DNA of 64,000 nt. Source: Candidatus Udaeobacter sp. (GTDB taxonomy: Bacteria; Patescibacteriota; Patescibacteriia; Magasanikbacterales; GWA2-37-8). Position 1 is the first letter of the stretch, and each line of letters begins with the position of its first letter. The notes beneath the pieces are model-generated. The model searched no databases and had not been told where the DNA came from. It saw nothing but the letters and a program-made list of their open reading frames with translations. The stretch lies in the NCBI GenBank assembly GCA_035473115.1, contig DATION010000002.1, forward strand, positions 105,368 through 169,367. The letters run 5' to 3'. Made by a program: the position numbers and the translations under genes. This document shows, piece after piece, positions 47,526 to 63,140 of the stretch.

Positions 47526-49760
47526 TTACTCTAAAGCTCTTAAAATCTTTTCTTTAATATCTACTGAAGTCATCCCAGCTAACTCATATACCTCAGCCAC
47601 ATTACCGGATTTTAAATAATGGTTTATACCCAAAGCTTTTTTAGAATAATCCGCTGGTAACATAAATGGATACAAAAATCCTGGCCAACCATTATGCAAA
47701 GTAATTACTAATTCCCTTTCTTCATCTGATAAAATACTTTTCGCTTTAGTTGGATTAGTTTTTTGTAAATCTTCAAATAATTCCGGGGAAGTAACAGCTA
47801 TAATTTTTATATCTAATCCTTGCTTTTCCAGTTCAGGCAAAACTTCTAAAGTATTTAACAAAATTTGCATACCGCAAATTGCTAAAACCGTCTTTTTGCC
47901 TTTACCAGAGAATTGTTTATAAACATAAGCGCCATTATTGGCTTCTATGGCCGCTGGCACTTCAGCACGCTTTATTACCGGCTGTTCCGGCCGGTAAAGA
48001 GACAGAATAATTGGCTCACCTTTTTCTAAAGCGCCAAACAGCATTTCTATAGTTTCATTGGCATCTGTTGGTTTATATACTTTTATTCCCGGCAAAGCAT
48101 TATAAAGAGACATCCAATACATTCCTTGGTGGGTTGGACCATCTTCGCCAGTTTCCGGGCCGTCGTGGGCAGCCAAAGCAATAAAAAAGCCTTTGGTTTC
48201 GGGATTAAGTTGATTACCAATTACCGCCAAGCGAATCGCATTGCCCATCATATTGGTAAAAACGGCAAAAGTACCAAAGACCGAAACTGGTTTGTATCCG
48301 CCCGGCAAAATATCTTGCGTCAGTCCGGCGCCCATCATGGCCATATTTTGTTCAGCAATGCCATAGCGAATACCGCGGCCCAGTGGATTATTTTTGGAAA
48401 TCAATCCATAAACTTCTTCGGCAGAATTGGTATAAACAGATTTAGCCAAATCTCCGGCTCCAGCATAAAAAAAGGCGGTCTGTTTCATATACCAAGCCAT
48501 CCAGGCTTGCACAGCTTTGCGAGTAGCTACTTTTTCGCCTTCGGCAAAAACTAATTCCGGCGGCAAAACTTTTGGCCGTTTTATAGCTAGAGGATCAACC
48601 ATTGGTCGGCCGCGCAAAGCTTTTTTCATTTTTTCTACCAAAATTGATTCTGGCACAATTTTCTGCGCGCCGACTTCTAATCTTTCCAAAATATATTTTT
48701 CATCTTCTGGATTAATTTGCGCCAAAACAGTTTGAATATCCGGCAATACTTTCCCCGGTTCGCCAGCAATATTAAAGCCTAATTTTTTCATTATATTTAC
48801 ATAATCATCGTGCTTGGCCAGAGTACTGTGGGCAGCGGCAGTATTTTCAGTCTTGCCATAACTTTTAGCTTTTAAAGTATGACAGATAACTACCGTCGGC
48901 GCGCCATTGGCAAACCCTTGCGCAGCCAACTGATAGGCATAAACCATTTCCAAAACATTATGCCCGTTGGTTTCTATAACATTCCAACCCAAACCCAGCC
49001 AATGATTAATATATGGCGAAGCCACAACTTCTTCTATTTCATCATCGATGCCAAAATGATTATAATCTAAACTGACAATTAAATTTTTTAAGCCGTTGGT
49101 AGCAATGATATTTCGCGCTTCATAGGTCATACCTTCTTCGCTTTCGGCATCGCCCATAAATACCCAAGTTTTGGTATCCAAGCCGCAAGACTGGTGTACC
49201 ATAGCCATTCCGCCAGCTACAGCAAACCCGTGCCCCAACGGGCCGGTAGTAAAATCAGAATATGGATATTGGGCTTCGGCATGGCCTTGCGGGCCATCAG
49301 CATGACGAAAACGAATCAGGTCTTCAGGCATGACTGCTTTTACTACTGCTTCGCCAAATTGGCGGCCAGCCCGTTTTAAAACTTCGTAATATAAGGCTTG
49401 TCCGGCAAAAAGCAGATCAGCGCAATGGCCTGAACTCCAAATTAATCTGTCTCGACCAGGATTTTTGGGGTTGGTTGGATCAAAGGCCATTACTCCACTT
49501 AGTGTCATGGCCAAAAATTGCTCCACCTTGCTGCTGCTGCCCGGATGACCGGATTGTCCGGCTTCGACAGCAGCAAAAATAAGGCCGCGAATAATTTTGG
49601 CTAGTTTGTCTAATCTAGGAACATCTATGCCGTCTATGGAAGCCAGATCTAAATCTTCGATATTTAAATACTGCCCGCTCTGGACAGAATATTGCAAAAG
49701 GTTTTTTTCTTTCTTTTTAAAATCTGCCATTCCTTTTTTGTCTAGGAGGTTGTAGGGCAT
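47526..49760 (-). CDS. tkt: Transketolase (long form, 744 aa)
   Basis: TPP-binding N-terminal domain (GHPGSS..), pyrimidine-binding domain and C-terminal domain. Confidence 0.85.
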   Translation of the reverse strand: MPYNLLDKKGMADFKKKEKNLLQYSVQSGQYLNIEDLDLASIDGIDVPRLDKLAKIIRGLIFAAVEAGQSGHPGSSSKVEQFLAMTLSGVMAFDPTNPKNPGRDRLIWSSGHCADLLFAGQALYYEVLKRAGRQFGEAVVKAVMPEDLIRFRHADGPQGHAEAQYPYSDFTTGPLGHGFAVAGGMAMVHQSCGLDTKTWVFMGDAESEEGMTYEARNIIATNGLKNLIVSLDYNHFGIDDEIEEVVASPYINHWLGLGWNVIETNGHNVLEMVYAYQLAAQGFANGAPTVVICHTLKAKSYGKTENTAAAHSTLAKHDDYVNIMKKLGFNIAGEPGKVLPDIQTVLAQINPEDEKYILERLEVGAQKIVPESILVEKMKKALRGRPMVDPLAIKRPKVLPPELVFAEGEKVATRKAVQAWMAWYMKQTAFFYAGAGDLAKSVYTNSAEEVYGLISKNNPLGRGIRYGIAEQNMAMMGAGLTQDILPGGYKPVSVFGTFAVFTNMMGNAIRLAVIGNQLNPETKGFFIALAAHDGPETGEDGPTHQGMYWMSLYNALPGIKVYKPTDANETIEMLFGALEKGEPIILSLYRPEQPVIKRAEVPAAIEANNGAYVYKQFSGKGKKTVLAICGMQILLNTLEVLPELEKQGLDIKIIAVTSPELFEDLQKTNPTKAKSILSDEERELVITLHNGWPGFLYPFMLPADYSKKALGINHYLKSGNVAEVYELAGMTSVDIKEKILRALE

Positions 49761-53208: not shown

Positions 53209-55506
53209 CTATTTACCCCAGAATCTTCCCTGTTCAAACATCTGTCGTTTCCATTTATAAAAATCTAAATATTCACATAAAGTAAGCGGTGTATTGCTAG
53301 CCACAATACTATTTTCTTGAGAACATTGCAGATCGCTTGGAATGGCATAGCTAATATTCTGTTTTCCATTTTCTTCTTGGTTTATATATAATCCGTATTC
53401 ATGCATTCCCAAAACATTTGGATATTTATTTCTATCATCAAAAACAGAATGGCCTTCAAAATTACTGGCGGTGTTAATATTTAAAATTTGCAACAAGGTA
53501 GGTGCTATATCTATACCGGAAGCAATGGTGTTTGATTCTTTTGGCAAAGTTCCATCTGGCAAATACATCATCAGCATATTTTCATCATAAAAACTCAGCT
53601 TATCGGCATCCTTAGGGAATAAATTTTTTATATCCGCACCCGGAAAAACTGCATGATCAGCCACAGCTACAACAATTGTATTATTGTAATATTTACTCTG
53701 TTTAAATTCTTGCCAGAATTTACCAAAAGCATCGTCGGTGGTGTGATACGAATTTAAAACATCATTTTTCCCATCTTGATACGGCGTCACATCTTTGGAT
53801 AAATTAAATGGCGCATGCGAATCAATGGTCGACATCATCATCAAAAATGGTTCCTGTTTTTCTTTATTGACTAATTGCCACATGGCTGGAAAGAGCTGAT
53901 GATCGGAGTATCCCCAAGACAAGGGCTCGTCTTTGATAATATTTTTTAATTCATCCTGACCATAAATACTTTCGGTATCCATGCTGGAAAAAATATTATA
54001 TTTATTCTCAAACTCTTTTTTTACCGCTGTGATATAAGTGGCGGATTTAAAGCCATTATTTTTTAAGATGGTTGGCAGACAAAGCAAACGCAATCTCTGC
54101 AAATTTTTATTATCTTCAACTTCGGTATAGCCAGTCGGTGGCAAAAAAGAACAAAGCTGGCCGATAATGCCGTTTATAGTTGGTGTGGAAGCGTTAAAAT
54201 AATTTTTAAATACAGTTGTATGCGGATCACTAGCCATATTTTCTAAACCAGGCGTTAAGCCAACTAAATTTTTATTATAAACACTAGTCAAGCGGCTAGA
54301 AAAAGATTCAAAAAAAACGATGATTACATTTGGTTTTGTAATGGCAAATTTTGGCGGCAGGATTTTTTTATCTGATGTAAAAATTTTGTCTTTACTGGTT
54401 AAATAAAAATCATCTGAGTGGTAAAATAAACCAAATTTTTCTAATTTTTCTTTGGTTATTGGATTTAATTTAACTTCAATTTTTTTTCCTAAAAAATAAT
54501 TATAAAAATTTCTGGCCACACTATATTCCGGAGTGTTTTGAAAAGAACTTAAGCCAAATAAAGAAATAAGACTAATAGCAATTAAAGCTAAACTATAATA
54601 TGCCCATTGTCTAAAAGAAGTCGTTCCAAAAGATTTAATAATTCTATGAAAAATTAAGCTAAAAATAATCAGTACAGCCAAAGCGATAGCCACCACAGTT
54701 GCCATAAACCAGTTAAACCCTACACTGCTGGCGCCGCTGGCAACTTGCAGCATTAACGGACTTAAATATAGTCCGGTAAAATACATAATGCCAATATTTA
54801 CTCCCCAAAAAACTAGTAGAAAAACGAATAAAATAACCCACAATCCCAAGGCCAAGTATCGCCAAAATGATTTAACTTTCCAATAGATAAGGGTAGAAAC
54901 CGAAAACCCTAAGACTAAAAACATAGTTATTGCCCAGGAGCGGAAAAAGACAATATTATAAAATTTTAGATAAGGATCAAAATTGGCAAACCGATAGGCC
55001 GAGTATTGTAAAATAAAAAATAAGCTAAACAAGAAAAAAATTAACCTAAAAATATTTTTGTTTACCAATTTCCATTCTTTAGCATTGGGATGAAGCGACA
55101 AATACTGTTGAGAACGATAAAAAAACAAAATCATCACATATAAAAATATGCCGGCGCTAAGCATCTGTTGACGGCTAAAGAAAACTAAGAAAAAAAGCGA
55201 GAAAATAAAAAACAGACTGTCCAAAAATCTACCGAACTCCTTTTGCCAAAAAACATGCCTATTAAATTTAACCGTAAAAAACTGATATAGCCATTTGAAT
55301 ATCGCATAGCCAACGTAAACAAAAATCCAGGTAGCCAGAGAAATAAGAATAAATCGGCTATGTGGCCGATACGCCGTATGATACCAATTCCAACCGGCGG
55401 CAATAACAAAAGCGCCGACTATTCTAAAAAAAGTCGGCAGCTTGCCCGGCGTAGTATTAATGAAGACGGGCTGTTTTTTTATTTTATTTAAAAAATCTTT
55501 CAGCAT
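53209..55506 (-). CDS. LtaS/MdoB-like sulfatase-family membrane protein (phosphoglycerol or phosphoethanolamine transferase-like)
   Basis: Polytopic N-terminal half and a C-terminal alkaline-phosphatase-superfamily (sulfatase) domain (IVFFESFSS..., ...DHAVFPGAD). Confidence 0.65.
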   Translation of the reverse strand: MLKDFLNKIKKQPVFINTTPGKLPTFFRIVGAFVIAAGWNWYHTAYRPHSRFILISLATWIFVYVGYAIFKWLYQFFTVKFNRHVFWQKEFGRFLDSLFFIFSLFFLVFFSRQQMLSAGIFLYVMILFFYRSQQYLSLHPNAKEWKLVNKNIFRLIFFLFSLFFILQYSAYRFANFDPYLKFYNIVFFRSWAITMFLVLGFSVSTLIYWKVKSFWRYLALGLWVILFVFLLVFWGVNIGIMYFTGLYLSPLMLQVASGASSVGFNWFMATVVAIALAVLIIFSLIFHRIIKSFGTTSFRQWAYYSLALIAISLISLFGLSSFQNTPEYSVARNFYNYFLGKKIEVKLNPITKEKLEKFGLFYHSDDFYLTSKDKIFTSDKKILPPKFAITKPNVIIVFFESFSSRLTSVYNKNLVGLTPGLENMASDPHTTVFKNYFNASTPTINGIIGQLCSFLPPTGYTEVEDNKNLQRLRLLCLPTILKNNGFKSATYITAVKKEFENKYNIFSSMDTESIYGQDELKNIIKDEPLSWGYSDHQLFPAMWQLVNKEKQEPFLMMMSTIDSHAPFNLSKDVTPYQDGKNDVLNSYHTTDDAFGKFWQEFKQSKYYNNTIVVAVADHAVFPGADIKNLFPKDADKLSFYDENMLMMYLPDGTLPKESNTIASGIDIAPTLLQILNINTASNFEGHSVFDDRNKYPNVLGMHEYGLYINQEENGKQNISYAIPSDLQCSQENSIVASNTPLTLCEYLDFYKWKRQMFEQGRFWGK

Positions 55507-58980: not shown

Positions 58981-59061
58981 TTGTCATTCTGAACAAAGTG
59001 AAGAATCCCTGTCTCAAACACCGAATGGACAGAGATCCTTCGTTCCACTCAGGATGACAAA
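58981..59061. repeat. Palindromic repeat element copy C (intergenic, NlpC/P60-like gene to mraY)
   Basis: TTGTCATTCTGAAC...GTGAAGAATCCCTGTC...GACAGAGATCCTTCG...CACTCAGGATGACAA. It starts immediately after the stop codon at 58980. Confidence 0.7.
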
Positions 59062-59073
59062 CTAAACAATTTT

Positions 59074-60189
59074 ATGAATTTACAATTAATTCAACAAGCT
59101 CTAACTTATTTAATTTTTTCCGCTGTCGGAGCGTTTGTTTGGTCGCCACTGCTTATCAAATTTTTATATAAATACAACATCACTCGCCGCGATGAATTTG
59201 ATTTTACCCTTAAAGGTGATCGCAATAAAAAAATTGGCACACCAATTATGGGCGGACTGCTTGTGATAATTACGGTAACGTTAATTACTGTGTTCTTTAA
59301 CTGGAACCGAGAAAGTACTTATGTGCCTATGGGTGTGATGGGGATTGCAGCGCTGCTGGGAGCGGCCGATGATTTATTAAACATTTTTGGCAAAAAACGC
59401 CGCGAACGAAAAATCTCGCATATTATAAATTTAATAAAACTGCACAAACAATGGTATATGCGTTTGTGGTATATCTTTATTTTGCCTTGGGAAATTTTTA
59501 GAAAACTGGCTTCCATGCTTGGCTCTCACCCTGGCCGAGGTATTCAAGTTCACGAAAAACTATTGTTTCAATTCTTGGCCGGAGCGGTTACGGCTTGGTG
59601 GATATATTTTAAATTGGGAATTTTTTGGCACTCTTTATGGATGCCGTTTGACGGCCAACCATTTATTGGCTGGTGGATAATCCCAATTGTCATTTTTTTC
59701 GTAATGTTTACCGCTAATGCCGTGAATTTTGCTGATGGTTTGGATGGTTTGGCTGGCGGATCACTGATCATAACTTTCTTGGGCTTAATGATAATCAGCT
59801 GGACTGAAGGCCGAGTCTCTTTTACTATTCTTAATGCTACAGTTGTTGGTGCTTTAATGACTTACACTTATTTTAATGTAAAGCCAGCCAGGTTTCAGAT
59901 GGGAGATGTAGGTTCCTTGGGGTTAGGCGCATTGTTAGCTATTAACGCCATTGCCGTAAACCGCACGATGCTTTTGCCGTTTCTCGGTTTTATTTTTTAT
60001 ATAGAAATAATTTCTGTACTTATCCAAGTTTTCTGTCGCCGTTTGCTGGGAAAAAGATTTTTTAAGATGGCACCGCTACATCATCATTTTGAATTCCATG
60101 GCTGGAGCGAAGAAAAAATCGTGATGCGTTTTTGGCTAGTGCACGCGTTTTTTGTAATTCTAGCAATTTGGATGAGTTTGTATAAATAA
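59074..60189 (+). CDS. mraY: Phospho-N-acetylmuramoyl-pentapeptide transferase
   Basis: NAVNFADGLDGLA and PLHHHFE motifs. Polytopic membrane protein. Confidence 0.9.
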   Translation: MNLQLIQQALTYLIFSAVGAFVWSPLLIKFLYKYNITRRDEFDFTLKGDRNKKIGTPIMGGLLVIITVTLITVFFNWNRESTYVPMGVMGIAALLGAADDLLNIFGKKRRERKISHIINLIKLHKQWYMRLWYIFILPWEIFRKLASMLGSHPGRGIQVHEKLLFQFLAGAVTAWWIYFKLGIFWHSLWMPFDGQPFIGWWIIPIVIFFVMFTANAVNFADGLDGLAGGSLIITFLGLMIISWTEGRVSFTILNATVVGALMTYTYFNVKPARFQMGDVGSLGLGALLAINAIAVNRTMLLPFLGFIFYIEIISVLIQVFCRRLLGKRFFKMAPLHHHFEFHGWSEEKIVMRFWLVHAFFVILAIWMSLYK

Positions 60190-60198
60190 TTAAAAAAG

Positions 60199-60304
60199 CA
60201 TTATATAATTTGTTAATTTTTGCAGTGGTCATCGCACCTCCGGGTAGGCGTCCCGACAAAGTCGGGACAGTTTGACCACAAAAAAATTAACAAATTATAT
60301 AATG
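60199..60304. repeat. Nested palindrome with GC-rich core between mraY and the downstream gene
   Basis: 24-bp AT-rich inverted arms (CATTATATAATTTGTTAATTTTTG / CAAAAAAATTAACAAATTATATAATG) flank a GC-rich core that holds two further hairpins (GTGGTCA...TGACCAC and GTCCCGAC-AAA-GTCGGGAC). Confidence 0.6.
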
Positions 60305-61042
60305 ATCCATGATATGTACCTAAGCTGGCAAGAGAAAACTTTAACTGAATTTAATGACACAGATATAGAAAATGCCTATGACCAAGGCTTTGTTTTTACG
60401 CGTATTGGTAGAGGAGTAATGAATCAAACGAGAAGCTTACGAATCGATTTAGCCAAATTTGAATTATCTTCGGAAAACCGCCGTATCTTGAATAAAACTG
60501 AAGAGTTGAATTTATCTGTAGAGCCAATCCCCTATGCCGAATACGAATGGACAATCCATAAAATGGGCAAGGAATTTTACGAAACAAAGTTTGGAGATAA
60601 AGTTTTTAGCGCGCAAAAAATAAAAGAGCTGATCACAGACAAGGAAAAAAGTAATTTTAATAAATTATTTGTTTACGCTGTCATCCCGACCGCAGTGGAG
60701 GGATCCCTTAAACCACAAAGTATAAGGGATTCTTCGACTCCGCTCCGCTCCGCTCAGAATGACAAAGCGACGCCGATTGGTTACTGTATTACTTTAGAAA
60801 CCAAAAATATTTTACACTACTGTTACCCTTTTTATGACCTGGCTTTAAACTTTCCTAACTTAGGGATGGGCATGATGCTCAAAGCAATTGTTTGGGCAAA
60901 GGAAAACAATAAAAAATATATTTATTTAGGCTCATTCCAACGGCCAACTGACACTTACAAACTGCAATTTGCTGGATTAGAATGGTTTGAAGGAACAGAA
61001 TGGAAAAATGATTTAGAAGAATTAAAATTAATAAACTTATAA
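60302..61042 (+). CDS. Bpt/ATE-family aminoacyl-tRNA--protein transferase-like protein (GNAT fold) carrying an in-frame palindromic-element insertion
   Basis: QGF...RxG, FELSSENRRIL and YLGSFQ...TYKLQF resemble Bpt/ATE1 motifs (NGFRRSG, LSRSQKRLL, YLGY...NYKVRF). The start was chosen at ATG 60302; the ORF-track start at 60272 is a TTG inside the upstream palindrome. The segment IPTAVEGSLKPQSIRDSSTPLRSAQNDKATP comes from repeat copy D. Confidence 0.45.
   Translation: MIHDMYLSWQEKTLTEFNDTDIENAYDQGFVFTRIGRGVMNQTRSLRIDLAKFELSSENRRILNKTEELNLSVEPIPYAEYEWTIHKMGKEFYETKFGDKVFSAQKIKELITDKEKSNFNKLFVYAVIPTAVEGSLKPQSIRDSSTPLRSAQNDKATPIGYCITLETKNILHYCYPFYDLALNFPNLGMGMMLKAIVWAKENNKKYIYLGSFQRPTDTYKLQFAGLEWFEGTEWKNDLEELKLINL
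60678..60760. repeat. Palindromic repeat element copy D, inserted in frame in the Bpt-like gene
   Basis: TGTCATCCCGACCGC...GTGGAGGGATCCCTTA...TAAGGGATTCTTCGAC...GCTCAGAATGACA. Confidence 0.75.
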
Positions 61043-61679: not shown

Positions 61680-63140
61680 ATGAAAAATAAACATATTCAT
61701 TTTATCGGCATCTGCGGTGTGGCCATGAGCGCTCTAGCGATCGCTTTCCATAAAGAAGGCTGGGAAGTTACTGGCAGCGATGTCGGATTCTTTCCGCCTA
61801 TTTCTGATTATTTAAAAAATAATAATATTTCTTTTTATCCGGGCTGGCACCCAGAAAAAATGACAGCTAACGGCAATCCGGATATTATCGTGGTTGGCAA
61901 CGTGGCCGGATCGGCAAACCCGGAATTTATTTACGCCCGAAAAAATAACTTGAATTATAAATCTTACCCGGAAGTTATTGCCGAATATATTGTGCAAAAA
62001 AATTCCCTTGTCTGTGCCGGTACTTATGGCAAAACTTCCACTACCGCTCTACTGACTCTTATATTAGAAAAAGCCGGCATCAACACATCATATATGTTCG
62101 GTGGTTTAAGTTTAAATTTGCCAAACAGCGCAAAAATTATTCCCCGCTTGGGCGGGGAAGACCTAGACGACCAACCCACCCCTACCCCGCCCAAGCGGGG
62201 AATTGACGGGTGGAGTGTGCTTGAGGGCGACGAATATAAAACTGCTCGTTGGGACAGTCGGCCAAAATTTAAACTCTATTCCCCTACCCATCTTTTACTC
62301 ACTTCCGTATCTTGGGACCATGCCGATATTTACCCAACTGAAGAAACTTATCTACAGGCATTTAAAGATTTGGTTGGCATGATTCCAAACAACGGATTGA
62401 TTGTTGCCTGCACTGATGATTTAAAAATTAAAAATGTTTTAAAATCAAACACCAATGAAACAAAAATTGTTACTTATGGAAAAAATGAACCAGCTGATTA
62501 TTGTTATGCAAATTTAAAACAAACCTCTGCCGGAATTTCTTTTACAATTAAACACCAAAGTAAAGAAACAGTTATTCATGCTCCGGTTTTGGGTGAACAT
62601 ATGGCTGAAAATATCTGCGGAGCTTTTGCTCTGGCCAAAGAAATAAATATTGATGAAGAAGTAATTATTAATACTATCGCTGAATTTAAAGGTATAAAAA
62701 GGAGATTGGAAAAAAGAAGTGAAGGAAAGATTGCTATTTATGACGACTTAGGCCATTCTCCAACCAAAGCTGCTGCCACCTTAAAAACCTTGCGAGATAT
62801 ATACCCTACCAACAAAATAATCGCTATTTTTGAACCAAATACCGGCAATCGCAAATCCCAATCCGCGCCAAGCTATGCCAATGCATTTAATAATGCCGAT
62901 GAAGTTATTATTCCTTTACTGACAAAAATAAAAATTGATCCTAATGACATTGATCCGCCATTTGATGGAGAGAAATTAGCAGAAATAATTTCTCAAACTC
63001 ATCCAAATACAATATTTATCGATAATGACGACAAATTGATTGAACATGTAAAAAACAATACCAAAAAAGAAGACATTACTGTCTTCCTTGGTTCGCACGG
63101 ATTTAGAGGAATGATTGAAAAACTAATGGAAACGAATTAA
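61680..63140 (+). CDS. mpl: Mur ligase family protein (Mpl/MurC-like) carrying an in-frame GC-rich palindromic insertion
   Basis: N-terminal HFIGICGVAMSALA and a P-loop GTYGKTSTT. The insertion PRLGGEDLDDQPTPTPPKRGIDG sits just before the conserved LEGDEY segment. Confidence 0.75.
   Translation: MKNKHIHFIGICGVAMSALAIAFHKEGWEVTGSDVGFFPPISDYLKNNNISFYPGWHPEKMTANGNPDIIVVGNVAGSANPEFIYARKNNLNYKSYPEVIAEYIVQKNSLVCAGTYGKTSTTALLTLILEKAGINTSYMFGGLSLNLPNSAKIIPRLGGEDLDDQPTPTPPKRGIDGWSVLEGDEYKTARWDSRPKFKLYSPTHLLLTSVSWDHADIYPTEETYLQAFKDLVGMIPNNGLIVACTDDLKIKNVLKSNTNETKIVTYGKNEPADYCYANLKQTSAGISFTIKHQSKETVIHAPVLGEHMAENICGAFALAKEINIDEEVIINTIAEFKGIKRRLEKRSEGKIAIYDDLGHSPTKAAATLKTLRDIYPTNKIIAIFEPNTGNRKSQSAPSYANAFNNADEVIIPLLTKIKIDPNDIDPPFDGEKLAEIISQTHPNTIFIDNDDKLIEHVKNNTKKEDITVFLGSHGFRGMIEKLMETN
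62151..62211. repeat. GC-rich perfect inverted repeat (17-bp arms, 27-nt spacer) inside mpl
   Basis: TCCCCGCTTGGGCGGGG...CCCCGCCCAAGCGGGGA. About 70 % GC in a roughly 33 % GC genome. The insertion is 61 bp and in frame. Confidence 0.7.

What the first reader, a model, noticed from the sequence alone, without database searches (positions are those of the whole stretch)
62151..62211. A second, GC-rich palindrome inserted in frame into the Mur ligase gene mpl
A perfect 17-bp inverted repeat (TCCCCGCTTGGGCGGGG ... CCCCGCCCAAGCGGGGA) with a 27-nt Pro/Thr-coding spacer sits inside mpl. It adds about 20 residues (PRLGGEDLDDQPTPTPPKRGIDG) just before the conserved LEGDEY motif. Local GC is about 70 % against about 33 % for the genome. 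It is a different family from the TGTCAT elements. This suggests that multiple selfish palindromes colonise coding sequence in this genome.
Basis: seen in the sequence. Interest (0 to 1): 0.55.

Follow-up and report, generated by a model that had tools for sequence, protein, structure and literature searches.

The report
Mobile GC-rich hairpin repeat inside a gene
A 66-base GC-rich palindrome sitting in frame inside a cell-wall ligase gene is a worn copy of a 33-base hairpin repeat that is scattered, nearly unchanged, through the genes and spacers of related ultra-small (Patescibacteria) bacteria, much like the selfish palindromes known from Rickettsia.

Summary
The palindrome is real, but it lies about 10 nt left of the reported coordinates. 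The arms are 62139-62160 and 62182-62203, with perfect 17-mers at 62141-62157 and 62185-62201. It is the most GC-rich 60-nt stretch of the window (70-72% against 36.9%).

It adds 22 in-frame codons (I154-I175) to a MurC/Mpl-family ligase. The closest syntenic orthologue lacks them. AlphaFold places them in a low-confidence coil.

It is not a one-off. Its right half is a perfect copy of a sharply bounded 33-nt unit, CCAACCCACCCCTACCCCGCCCAAGCGGGGAAT. I found at least 113 copies in 11 or more assemblies, up to 52 in one Patescibacteria genome, all within 3 mismatches.

- Units occur singly, as inverted doublets, and nested inside TGTCAT…ATGACA elements.
- They show no target-site duplication.
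- 37% lie inside long ORFs, read in five frames on both strands.
- The window copy is a doublet with an internal deletion.
- The same ligase loop carries other hairpin inserts in about 38% of close homologues.

Best reading: a selfish, non-autonomous palindromic repeat tolerated in a permissive loop. It has REP/REPIN-like architecture and RPE-like behaviour in coding sequence. The mobilising enzyme is unknown, and no RAYT or IS200-like gene was found. I found no prior description.

The parts
62139..62204 (+). The whole in-frame insert: 22 codons (I154-I175, IPRLGGEDLDDQPTPTPPKRGI) inside the Mur ligase gene.
   Evidence: It is absent from the syntenic orthologue L003. The repeat-derived DNA is 62139-62203 (65 nt), and base 62204 completes the last codon.
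62139..62157 (-). Left partial unit in reverse orientation (ATTCCCCGCTTGGGCGGGG). The AAT end and the CCCCGC/GCGGGG hairpin are kept, but the GGGTGGGTTGG tail is lost.
   Evidence: Alignment with 32 canonical doublets.
62158..62170 (.). Spacer remnant AAGACCTAGACGA. It replaces the roughly 37-nt segment TCGGCCTCAAGGCCGG-GGGTGGGTT-CGACAACGTTGA of canonical doublets, so it marks an internal deletion.
   Evidence: The junction 22-mer has 0 hits in JGI metagenomes.
62171..62203 (+). Right unit, a 33/33 match to the family consensus CCAACCCACCCCTACCCCGCCCAAGCGGGGAAT. It consists of a 14-nt C-rich tail, a 6-bp stem with a 4-nt loop, and AAT.
62175..62192 (-). The G-rich strand reads GGGCGGGGTAGGGGTGGG, four G-runs that fit the G-quadruplex consensus. 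This comes from reading the sequence only and was not tested.
   Evidence: Sequence. The quadruplex is an inference.
61680..63140 (+). Host gene: a MurC/Mpl-family Mur ligase of 486 aa, in a conserved mraY / ATE_C-like / DUF4760 / ligase / LysW-like / PALP neighbourhood.

Best explanation
The feature is a decayed copy of a small, non-autonomous, GC-rich palindromic repeat that spreads at the DNA level in Patescibacteria genomes.

The family's building block is a 33-nt unit: a C-rich tail, a 6-bp hairpin and AAT. It occurs singly, as inverted doublets that can fold into one long hairpin, and nested in the loops of other palindromic elements.

A doublet landed in, or was recombined into, the variable loop just before the WSVLEGDEY strand of a MurC/Mpl-type ligase. 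It then lost about 24 nt internally.

It survives there for three reasons. The net change keeps the reading frame. The unit has no stop codon in 5 of its 6 frames. The encoded Pro/Gly/Asp-rich peptide sits in a disordered surface loop.

Shown:
- membership of the repeat family;
- absence from the nearest orthologue;
- reading-frame continuity;
- a low-confidence coil in the structure model;
- sharp unit boundaries;
- no target-site duplication;
- use of five frames and both strands.

Inferred:
- The units are moved in trans by an enzyme that recognises a hairpin plus flanking tail on single-stranded DNA. An HUH/Y1 enzyme of the RAYT or IS200 type is the best-fitting known mechanism, at roughly 25-30% likelihood.
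- The peptide is neutral.
- The 22-bp GC-rich mRNA hairpin may impose a modest cost on expression.
For: **Observation.** Searches confirm the palindrome and exclude chance.

**Insertion.** The syntenic empty site in L003 and the alignment of 41 homologues show it is an insertion.

**Family size.** The 20-mer CCAACCCACCCCTACCCCGC hits 100 stretches of GTDB genomes. Copies per assembly are 52 in JBBTSL, 18 in CAYHHR, 14 in CAYIHE, 13 in CAZXML and 7 in JBBUEJ.

**Sharp boundaries.** Information content is about 2 bits at positions 0-32 and about 0 outside, among 69 single units.

**Architecture.** There are 34 doublets with a conserved layout, and the window copy aligns to them with an internal gap.

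**Homogeneity.** 68 copies are exact, 35 have 1 mismatch, 10 have 2, 1 has 3, and none has 4-8 mismatches in 725 kb.

**Empty versus filled sites.** L037 (filled) against window 47770-48055 (empty) gives a gap of exactly 33 nt.

**No target-site duplication.** For k = 2, 3 flank pairs match against 3.4 expected, and results for k = 3-5 are similar.

**Coding-sequence behaviour.** 41 of 112 copies lie in ORFs open for at least 50 codons on both sides, against 60% of random 33-mers from the same loci. 18 are on the same strand as the ORF and 23 on the opposite strand. All five open frames are used.

**Structure.** pLDDT is below 50 for residues 157-174.

**Hot spot.** 19 of 50 close homologues carry an expanded loop (14 aa or more) here, of at least 8 kinds, and the inserts examined as DNA form hairpins.
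Against: No mobilising enzyme was found.
- No multi-copy transposase-like ORF family turned up.

Only one copy lies in this 64-kb window, so activity in this particular genome is unproven.

The Mur ligase loop varies among orthologues, so the exact insertion boundaries and any accompanying deletion cannot be reconstructed. The net gain is 16 codons, but the element encodes 22.

The extreme homogeneity, and identical units at orthologous sites whose flanks are only about 60% identical, are not what a simple model of insertion followed by neutral decay predicts.

The window copy rests on a single assembly. The only identical protein in the database, P0001, comes from one contig.
Confidence: 0.82

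Rival explanations
1. The units are kept uniform and spread between genomes by a drive other than transposition. One candidate is gene conversion among copies. Another is preferential DNA uptake followed by homologous recombination of unit-bearing fragments, as with uptake signal sequences. On this view the window copy arrived by recombination, not by a transposase.
For: - There are no diverged copies with 4-8 mismatches.
- Units are 94-100% identical at orthologous sites whose flanks are 59-64% identical.
- One orthologous pair (L041/L099) has a right flank 100% identical over 120 nt but a left flank only 85% identical, which looks like a recent recombination tract.
- There is no target-site duplication and no transposase.
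- Single units and inverted pairs both occur, in coding and non-coding DNA, which is also true of USS and DUS (my own knowledge).
Against: - Empty versus filled comparisons show clean insertions of 33 nt or 50 nt, not motifs built up by point mutation.
- Density is far below that of known uptake sequences. Those occur about once per kb (my own knowledge). Here there are 52 or more per genome-scale MAG and 1 in this 64-kb window.
- Nesting inside other palindromes and the conserved doublet architecture look like mobile-element behaviour.
Confidence: 0.1
2. The insert is removed or processed at the RNA level, behaving like an intron or a cleavage site for a double-strand-specific RNase. On this view the protein does not contain the 22 residues, or the hairpin serves to regulate the ligase mRNA.
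For: The mRNA hairpin is very stable: a 22-bp stem within a 96-nt segment that folds at -46.8 kcal/mol. The element is GC-rich in an AT-rich message. Patescibacteria are known for unusual insertions in rRNA genes (my own knowledge).
Against: - The single unit is exactly 33 nt, and 41 copies, 10 of them composite doublets, keep long ORFs open on both sides. RNA-level removal would not require this.
- The frame containing a stop codon is never used.
- Units lie on both strands relative to the gene, 18 against 23. An RNA signal would be strand-specific.
- There is no Rfam match beyond generic hairpin hits far below threshold.
Confidence: 0.04
3. The segment is a lineage-specific loop expansion selected for a protein function, for example a new interaction surface on the ligase. 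On this view the DNA palindrome is incidental.
For: The insert lies next to the conserved EGDEY motif. The same loop is expanded in many homologues and in Psychrobacter Mpl 3hn7.
Against: - The same DNA unit is translated as five unrelated peptides in unrelated proteins: QPTPTPPKRG, SPLGRGRGGL, NPPLPRPSGE, IPRLGGVGVGW and PTHPYPAQAGN. It also occurs in intergenic DNA.
- The loop inserts of different homologues are unrelated in sequence.
- The model shows no structure for the segment.
Confidence: 0.03

Closest known systems
Rickettsia palindromic elements (RPEs; Ogata et al. 2000 and 2002, as summarised in PMC10969869)
   Same: Both are selfish palindromic repeats inserted in frame into unrelated housekeeping genes of a small-genome bacterium. 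Both are tolerated at positions compatible with the protein fold. No transposase is known for either.
   Different: - RPEs are about 100-150 bp, and each family encodes a conserved peptide in one frame. Here the unit is 33 nt (65 nt in the window) and is read in five frames on both strands.
- These units are nearly invariant across species.
- They form inverted doublets and nest inside other palindromes.
- The host phylum is different.
- Sequence similarity to RPEs was not tested.
REP sequences, REPIN doublets and BIME mosaics, mobilised by RAYT (Y1/HUH) transposases (PMC3116915, PMC3337134)
   Same: - The unit is about 33 nt and consists of a short GC-rich hairpin plus a conserved flank.
- There are tens of copies per genome.
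- Single units coexist with inverted doublets separated by a conserved spacer.
- Units combine in mosaics with other palindromic motifs.
- There is no target-site duplication.
- Copies are very homogeneous.
   Different: - REPs and REPINs are extragenic by definition. Here 37% of copies lie inside long ORFs.
- No RAYT-like gene was found near the copies, though that test was weak.
- No GTAG lies 5' of the hairpin in the REP arrangement.
- Nothing of this kind has been reported for Patescibacteria.
GC clusters of yeast and fungal mitochondrial genomes (my own knowledge, not checked here)
   Same: Both are short GC-rich palindromic mobile modules in an AT-rich genome. Both are found between genes and inside genes, and both often insert into one another.
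   Different: The mitochondrial elements are organellar, belong to unrelated sequence families, and are thought to spread by a different route. No comparison was run.
Classical bacterial MITEs (Correia, ERIC, Nezha and others; PMC10969869)
   Same: Both are small, non-autonomous and repeated, and both occasionally create in-frame fusions with host ORFs.
   Different: Classical MITEs have terminal inverted repeats derived from an insertion sequence and make target-site duplications. Here the single units have no terminal inverted repeats and show no duplication, and no parent insertion sequence was found.

Membership tests
Rickettsia palindromic elements (RPE) | A palindromic repeat inserted in frame in protein-coding genes | tested here: met
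Rickettsia palindromic elements (RPE) | About 100-150 bp long, with one conserved encoded peptide per family | tested here: not met
   The unit is 33 nt, the window copy 65 nt and canonical doublets 89 nt. Five different frames are used. The RPE features are taken from PMC10969869.
Rickettsia palindromic elements (RPE) | Sequence similarity to RPE-1 through RPE-10 of Rickettsia | not tested
   No RPE sequences were available in the tools used.
REP / REPIN | A short (about 20-40 nt) imperfect-palindrome unit present in many copies per genome | tested here: met
   The unit is 33 nt, with 52 or more copies in MAG JBBTSL.
REP / REPIN | [quoted passage not shown] | tested here: met
   34 of 103 copies examined are doublets with a conserved spacer. 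The window copy is one of them.
REP / REPIN | Extragenic location | tested here: not met
   41 of 112 copies lie inside ORFs open for at least 50 codons on both sides, including the window copy.
REP / REPIN | A cognate RAYT (Y1/HUH transposase) gene, typically flanked by the repeats | tested here: inconclusive
   tblastn with remembered RayT, IS200 and IS608 sequences found nothing below E = 0.1 in 725 kb. ORFs lying between unit pairs are housekeeping genes such as RnpA, YidD and a tRNA synthetase. No profile search and no complete genome were available.
Classical MITE | Target-site duplication flanking the element | tested here: not met
   Flanking k-mers match no more often than in permutations. 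One empty-site comparison gives a clean 33-nt gap.
Classical MITE | Terminal inverted repeats related to a full-length insertion sequence in the same genomes | tested here: not met
   Single units have unlike ends (CCAACCC... and ...GGGGAAT). No multi-copy transposase ORF was found in the loci.
CRISPR repeat | Regularly spaced direct repeats forming an array | tested here: not met
   Loci with two copies have them 0.05-4.6 kb apart and in mixed orientation. The stem merely resembles type I-E repeats, a comparison from my own memory.
DNA uptake sequences (USS / DUS) | Very high density (about one per kb), arising by substitution within existing sequence | tested here: not met
   There is 1 copy in 64 kb here and 52 or more in a whole MAG. 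Copies are insertions of 33 nt.
Mpl (TIGR01081) / MurC (TIGR01082), for the host gene | A score above the curated equivalog cut-off | tested here: not met
   murC scores 273.5 bits against a cut-off of 335.1. mpl scores 239.3 bits against 388.7. The three Mur ligase Pfam domains are present.

The most novel reading that the evidence does not exclude
Patescibacteria carry a previously undescribed system of tiny, frame-neutral palindromic modules. These are the exactly 33-nt unit, its doublets, the TGTCAT elements and further hairpins. They insert into one another's loops and into permissive loops of essential proteins.

They are held almost invariant across species by an active process: ongoing precise excision and re-insertion, gene conversion, or a drive based on DNA uptake. 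They appear to be mobilised by a hairpin-recognising activity that is not a recognisable RAYT or IS200 transposase.

If so, a sizeable share of the odd loop insertions in proteins of this phylum would be mobile DNA rather than adaptive protein evolution.
Probability: 0.3. Interest if true: 0.7.

Novelty: new variant of a known kind. Interest (0 to 1): 0.5.

Why it matters
If this holds, three things follow.

1. **A second clear case of protein-coding palindromes.** The phenomenon was called 'unique' to Rickettsia. This would place it in an unrelated, very large and uncultivated phylum, using a REP-sized module.

2. **Consequences for annotation and phylogenomics.** Loop insertions in Patescibacteria proteins split HMM matches. 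Here the murC model matches in two pieces and falls below its cut-off. They also inflate apparent protein novelty. Masking these repeats would improve annotation and alignments.

3. **An open mechanistic question that can be tested.** The units are 33/33 identical at orthologous sites whose flanks are only 60% identical. No transposase or target-site duplication is visible. Read-level presence/absence polymorphism and complete genomes could show how hairpin repeats are moved and homogenised.

For the window itself the finding is modest: one decayed copy that is probably neutral for the ligase.

Tried and rejected
- **Rfam.** The region gave only sub-threshold generic miRNA-hairpin hits, and the whole window gave nothing at gathering scores. 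It is not a known RNA family.
- **CRISPR-like repeat.** Rejected because there are no arrays.
- **Further copies in the window.** None of the 17-mer, 20-mer or 18-mer within 3 mismatches.
- **The window-specific junction** GGGGAAGACCTAGACGACCAAC in JGI metagenomes: 0 hits. This deleted form is not a propagating subfamily.
- **The 20-mer in IMG/VR viral contigs:** 0 hits, so there is no sign of a phage vector.
- **Y1/HUH transposase.** Clustering the ORFs of all loci found no multi-copy transposase. It found only pilin-like, response-regulator, DUF559-like and housekeeping families. The DUF559-like ORFs are not consistently adjacent to units.
- **Target-site duplication or a flanking inverted repeat around single units:** none.
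- **Literature.** Full-text searches for the sequence strings, and for palindromic or MITE elements in Patescibacteria/CPR, found nothing relevant.
- **DNA for P0027.** This is the homologue with a TGTCAT-type insert in the same loop.
- **Protein-level function of the insert.** Rejected because the unit is translated in five frames.
Full report
**1. The observation**

TCCCCGCTTGGGCGGGG is at 62141-62157, and its reverse complement CCCCGCCCAAGCGGGGA is at 62185-62201, with 27 nt between them. With flanking bases the arms are 22 nt and 95% complementary, at 62139-62160 and 62182-62203. The reported range 62151-62211 is therefore about 10 nt too far right.

The 17-mer, allowing up to 3 mismatches, is expected 0.05 times per window. 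The 96-nt segment folds at -46.8 kcal/mol as RNA (z = -4.7) and at -26.6 kcal/mol as DNA (z = -5.2). None of 200 shuffles was as stable.

GC is 0.70 for 62140-62199 and peaks at 0.72. That is the highest 60-nt value in a window averaging 36.9%, not 33%.

Each arm is itself a mini-hairpin: CCCCGC-TTGG-GCGGGG on the left and CCCCGC-CCAA-GCGGGG on the right.

**2. The host gene and the insertion**

ORF 61680..63140 (486 aa) has the three Mur ligase Pfam domains. Its best solved relatives are Psychrobacter Mpl 3hn7 and MurC structures. It falls below NCBIfam's cut-offs for both murC and mpl, and the murC match is split in two at the insert. 'MurC/Mpl-family ligase' is the defensible name.

Of 5.8 billion clustered proteins, only one (P0001, 100% identical, one contig) carries this insert. 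The next relatives are 76-82% identical, and most are 462-470 aa long.

The syntenic locus L003 has the same gene order: mraY, ATE_C-like, DUF4760, ligase, LysW-like, PALP. There the ligase reads SAKI-NNKEAK-DGWSV. The window reads SAKI-IPRLGGEDLDDQPTPTPPKRGI-DGWSV.

The repeat-derived DNA occupies codons 154-175 (62139-62204). The net gain is 16 codons, so a few ancestral loop codons were probably lost as well.

An AlphaFold model (mean pLDDT 80, pTM 0.83) leaves residues 145-177 as coil, with pLDDT below 50 for 157-174. The model also has low-confidence stretches at 186-189, 197-201 and 208-219, so a low score here is not unique to the insert.

**3. It belongs to a dispersed repeat family**

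A more distant homologue (P0040, locus L001, 66% identical) has a longer insert in the same loop. It shares an exact 20-mer (CCAACCCACCCCTACCCCGC) and an exact 18-mer (CCCAAGCGGGGAATTGAC) with the window, although the coding flanks have diverged.

Together with the window and L001 that gives 113 copies. By assembly:

| Assembly | Label in the record | Copies |
|---|---|---|
| JBBTSL (H41-bin286_1) | Patescibacteria | 52 |
| CAYHHR | 'Gammaproteobacteria' | 18 |
| CAYIHE | 'Gammaproteobacteria' | 14 |
| CAZXML | 'Gammaproteobacteria' | 13 |
| JBBUEJ | Patescibacteria | 7 |
| six other assemblies | various | 1 each |

CAYIHE encodes the syntenic ligase P0023. The assemblies labelled 'Gammaproteobacteria' are therefore probably relatives of the window organism that have been mislabelled.

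**4. Anatomy of the family**

*The unit.* Among 69 single copies, information content is about 2 bits at positions 0-32 and about 0 outside. There is only a weak preference for T at -3 and G at -1. The unit is exactly 33 nt: CCAACCCACCCC-TA-CCCCGC-CCAA-GCGGGG-AAT. The most variable position lies in the hairpin loop.

*Homogeneity.* A fuzzy search of 725 kb found 68 exact copies, 35 with 1 mismatch, 10 with 2, 1 with 3, and none with 4-8.

*Doublets.* Thirty-four copies are inverted doublets with a conserved layout of 89 nt: ATTCCCCGCTYGGGCGGGG-TCGGCCTCAAGGCCGG-GGGTGGGTT-CGACAACGTTGA-unit. Roughly 15 of the 33 aligned doublets lie between TGTCAT... and ...ATGACA, that is, nested inside the other palindrome family.

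*Nesting.* Single units also sit in the loop of a TGTCAT element (L069). In L001 a further 35-nt hairpin sits inside the unit's own loop.

*The window copy.* It aligns as a doublet. Its right unit matches the consensus 33/33. Its left unit keeps only the hairpin. AAGACCTAGACGA replaces about 37 nt. That junction is unique in JGI metagenomes.

**5. Behaviour**

*Insertion without duplication.* Joining the flanks of each copy and searching all loci found empty sites. The L037 insertion corresponds to a clean 33-nt gap in the window's own gene at 47770-48055. Another pair shows a 50-nt gap, made up of a spacer fragment plus a unit. Two further sites are occupied by a different element in the other genome. 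Flanking k-mers show no target-site duplication.

*Coding sequence.* Forty-one of 112 copies (37%) lie in ORFs open for at least 50 codons on both sides, against 60% for random 33-mers in the same loci. Insertions into genes are therefore depleted but common. They occur on both strands (18 same, 23 opposite) and in all five stop-free frames:

| Peptide read from the unit | Copies |
|---|---|
| SPLGRGRGGL | 20 |
| QPTPTPPKRG | 11 |
| NPPLPRPSGE | 6 |
| IPRLGGVGVGW | 3 |
| PTHPYPAQAGN | 1 |

It is the DNA that is conserved, not a peptide.

**6. The loop is a hot spot**

Of the 50 closer homologues whose loop could be measured, 31 have 6-12 residues there. Nineteen have 14-42 residues, of at least eight unrelated kinds. 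One of these (P0027) is the same TGTCAT-type peptide that interrupts the window's ATE_C-like gene. Three other inserts, examined as DNA, form hairpins, two of them GC-rich, and one carries a nested extra hairpin.

**7. Mechanism**

The following are shown:
- a sharply bounded hairpin-plus-tail unit;
- single units and inverted doublets;
- nesting inside other palindromes;
- no target-site duplication;
- a frame-neutral length with almost no stop codons;
- survival in permissive loops.

The best-fitting known mechanism is recognition of a single-stranded DNA hairpin by an HUH/Y1 enzyme. This is how RAYTs mobilise REP and REPIN sequences (PMC3116915, PMC3337134). That assignment is an inference.

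I found no such gene:
- ORF clustering gave no multi-copy transposase.
- The genes lying between unit pairs are housekeeping genes.

This is a weak negative. The loci cover only parts of fragmented MAGs, and no profile search was possible.

*An unexplained point.* At two orthologous sites in JBBUEJ and CAYHHR the flanks are only 59-64% identical, yet the unit is 94-100% identical and sits at the same position. This implies constraint, gene conversion, repeated re-insertion, or a recombination drive. I keep a drive that does not involve transposition as the main rival.

*Other rivals.* Removal at the RNA level and a protein-level function are unlikely, given the frame statistics, the use of both strands, and the five different translations.

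**8. Comparison with known elements, and novelty**

Behaviour in coding sequence matches Rickettsia palindromic elements. However, those are about 100-150 bp and have one conserved peptide per family. Architecture matches REP, REPIN and BIME elements. However, those are extragenic and associated with a RAYT gene. Classical MITEs fail on target-site duplication and terminal inverted repeats. CRISPR repeats and uptake sequences fail on arrangement and density.

No paper in the searchable library mentions these sequences or describes such elements in Patescibacteria.

I rate the family as a new variant of a known kind. The window copy itself is a single, decayed and probably neutral relic.

**9. 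Verdict**

- the gene name 'mpl' is unproven;
- the GC baseline is 37%, not 33%;
- the window copy is a degenerate doublet, not an intact element;
- the family is physically linked to TGTCAT elements rather than fully separate from them.

Interest is 0.5. This is not a new principle. It is a clean, well-populated and apparently undescribed example with an open question about mechanism.

Noticed in passing
window 60679-60764 (gene 60302..61042 +, ATE_C-like): A TGTCAT...ATGACA palindromic element (GTCATCCCGACCGCAGTGGAGGGATCCC...GGGATTCTTCGACTCCGCTCCGCTCCGCTCAGAATGAC) adds about 27 in-frame residues (VIPTAVEGSLKPQSIRDSSTPLRSAQND...). The syntenic orthologue in L003 lacks them. The same peptide type fills the ligase loop of homologue P0027.
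   Followed up: partly
window 58981-59071 (intergenic, just upstream of mraY 59074..60189): A third palindromic element of the TGTCAT type: TTGTCATTCTGAACAAAGTGAAGAATCCCTGTC...GACAGAGATCCTTCGTTCCACTCAGGATGACAAA. Close copies occur in many of the fetched loci. In L069 the same element carries the 33-nt unit in its loop.
   Followed up: partly
window 60199-60304: A perfect 23-bp AT-rich inverted repeat encloses a 60-nt GC-rich core with nested stems (TGGTCA...TGACCA and GTCCCGAC-AAA-GTCGGGAC). The DNA fold is -34.4 kcal/mol with z = -10.6. It lies between mraY and the ATE_C-like gene, and its right arm runs into that gene's ATG at 60302. It may be another element family or a regulatory hairpin.
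   Followed up: partly
window 47770-48055 (ORF 47526..49760 -, 744 aa) and 53417-53693: These are the empty counterparts of unit insertions present in MAG CAZXML (L037 and L065). The L037 comparison gives a clean 33-nt gap.
   Followed up: partly
L012/L038, L067/L094, L041/L099: Units at orthologous sites are 94-100% identical while the flanks are 59-64% identical. In L041/L099 the right flank is 100% identical over 120 nt but the left flank only 85%, which looks like a recombination tract.
   Followed up: partly
L001 10512-10546; L104 2954-4489: Hairpins are nested inside hairpins. A 35-nt palindrome sits inside the unit's own loop in L001. An extra GCCCGCC...GGCGGGC hairpin sits inside the LSVAHTSLP/SSQEGI-type loop insert of P0007.
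   Followed up: no
P0001; assemblies CAYIHE, CAYHHR, CAZXML: The taxonomic labels look wrong. The window's own protein is filed under 'Candidatus Udaeobacter', and several repeat-rich MAGs are filed under 'uncultured Gammaproteobacteria'. Their ligase, gene order and closest relatives are Patescibacteria (Magasanikbacteria-like).
   Followed up: partly
homologues P0023/P0038, P0007/P0019, P0015/P0026, P0017, P0044 (alignment A1): The ligase has further insertion sites outside the main loop: RRVSMDVTRHDSAES, SPYGGSPAGR, GPQGGPFGS, a 25-residue C-terminal insert, and SLHQPPQ-type C-terminal tails. This suggests many permissive sites colonised by other small elements.
   Followed up: no
window 1-64000: No Rfam family reaches its gathering score anywhere in the 64 kb.
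   Followed up: no
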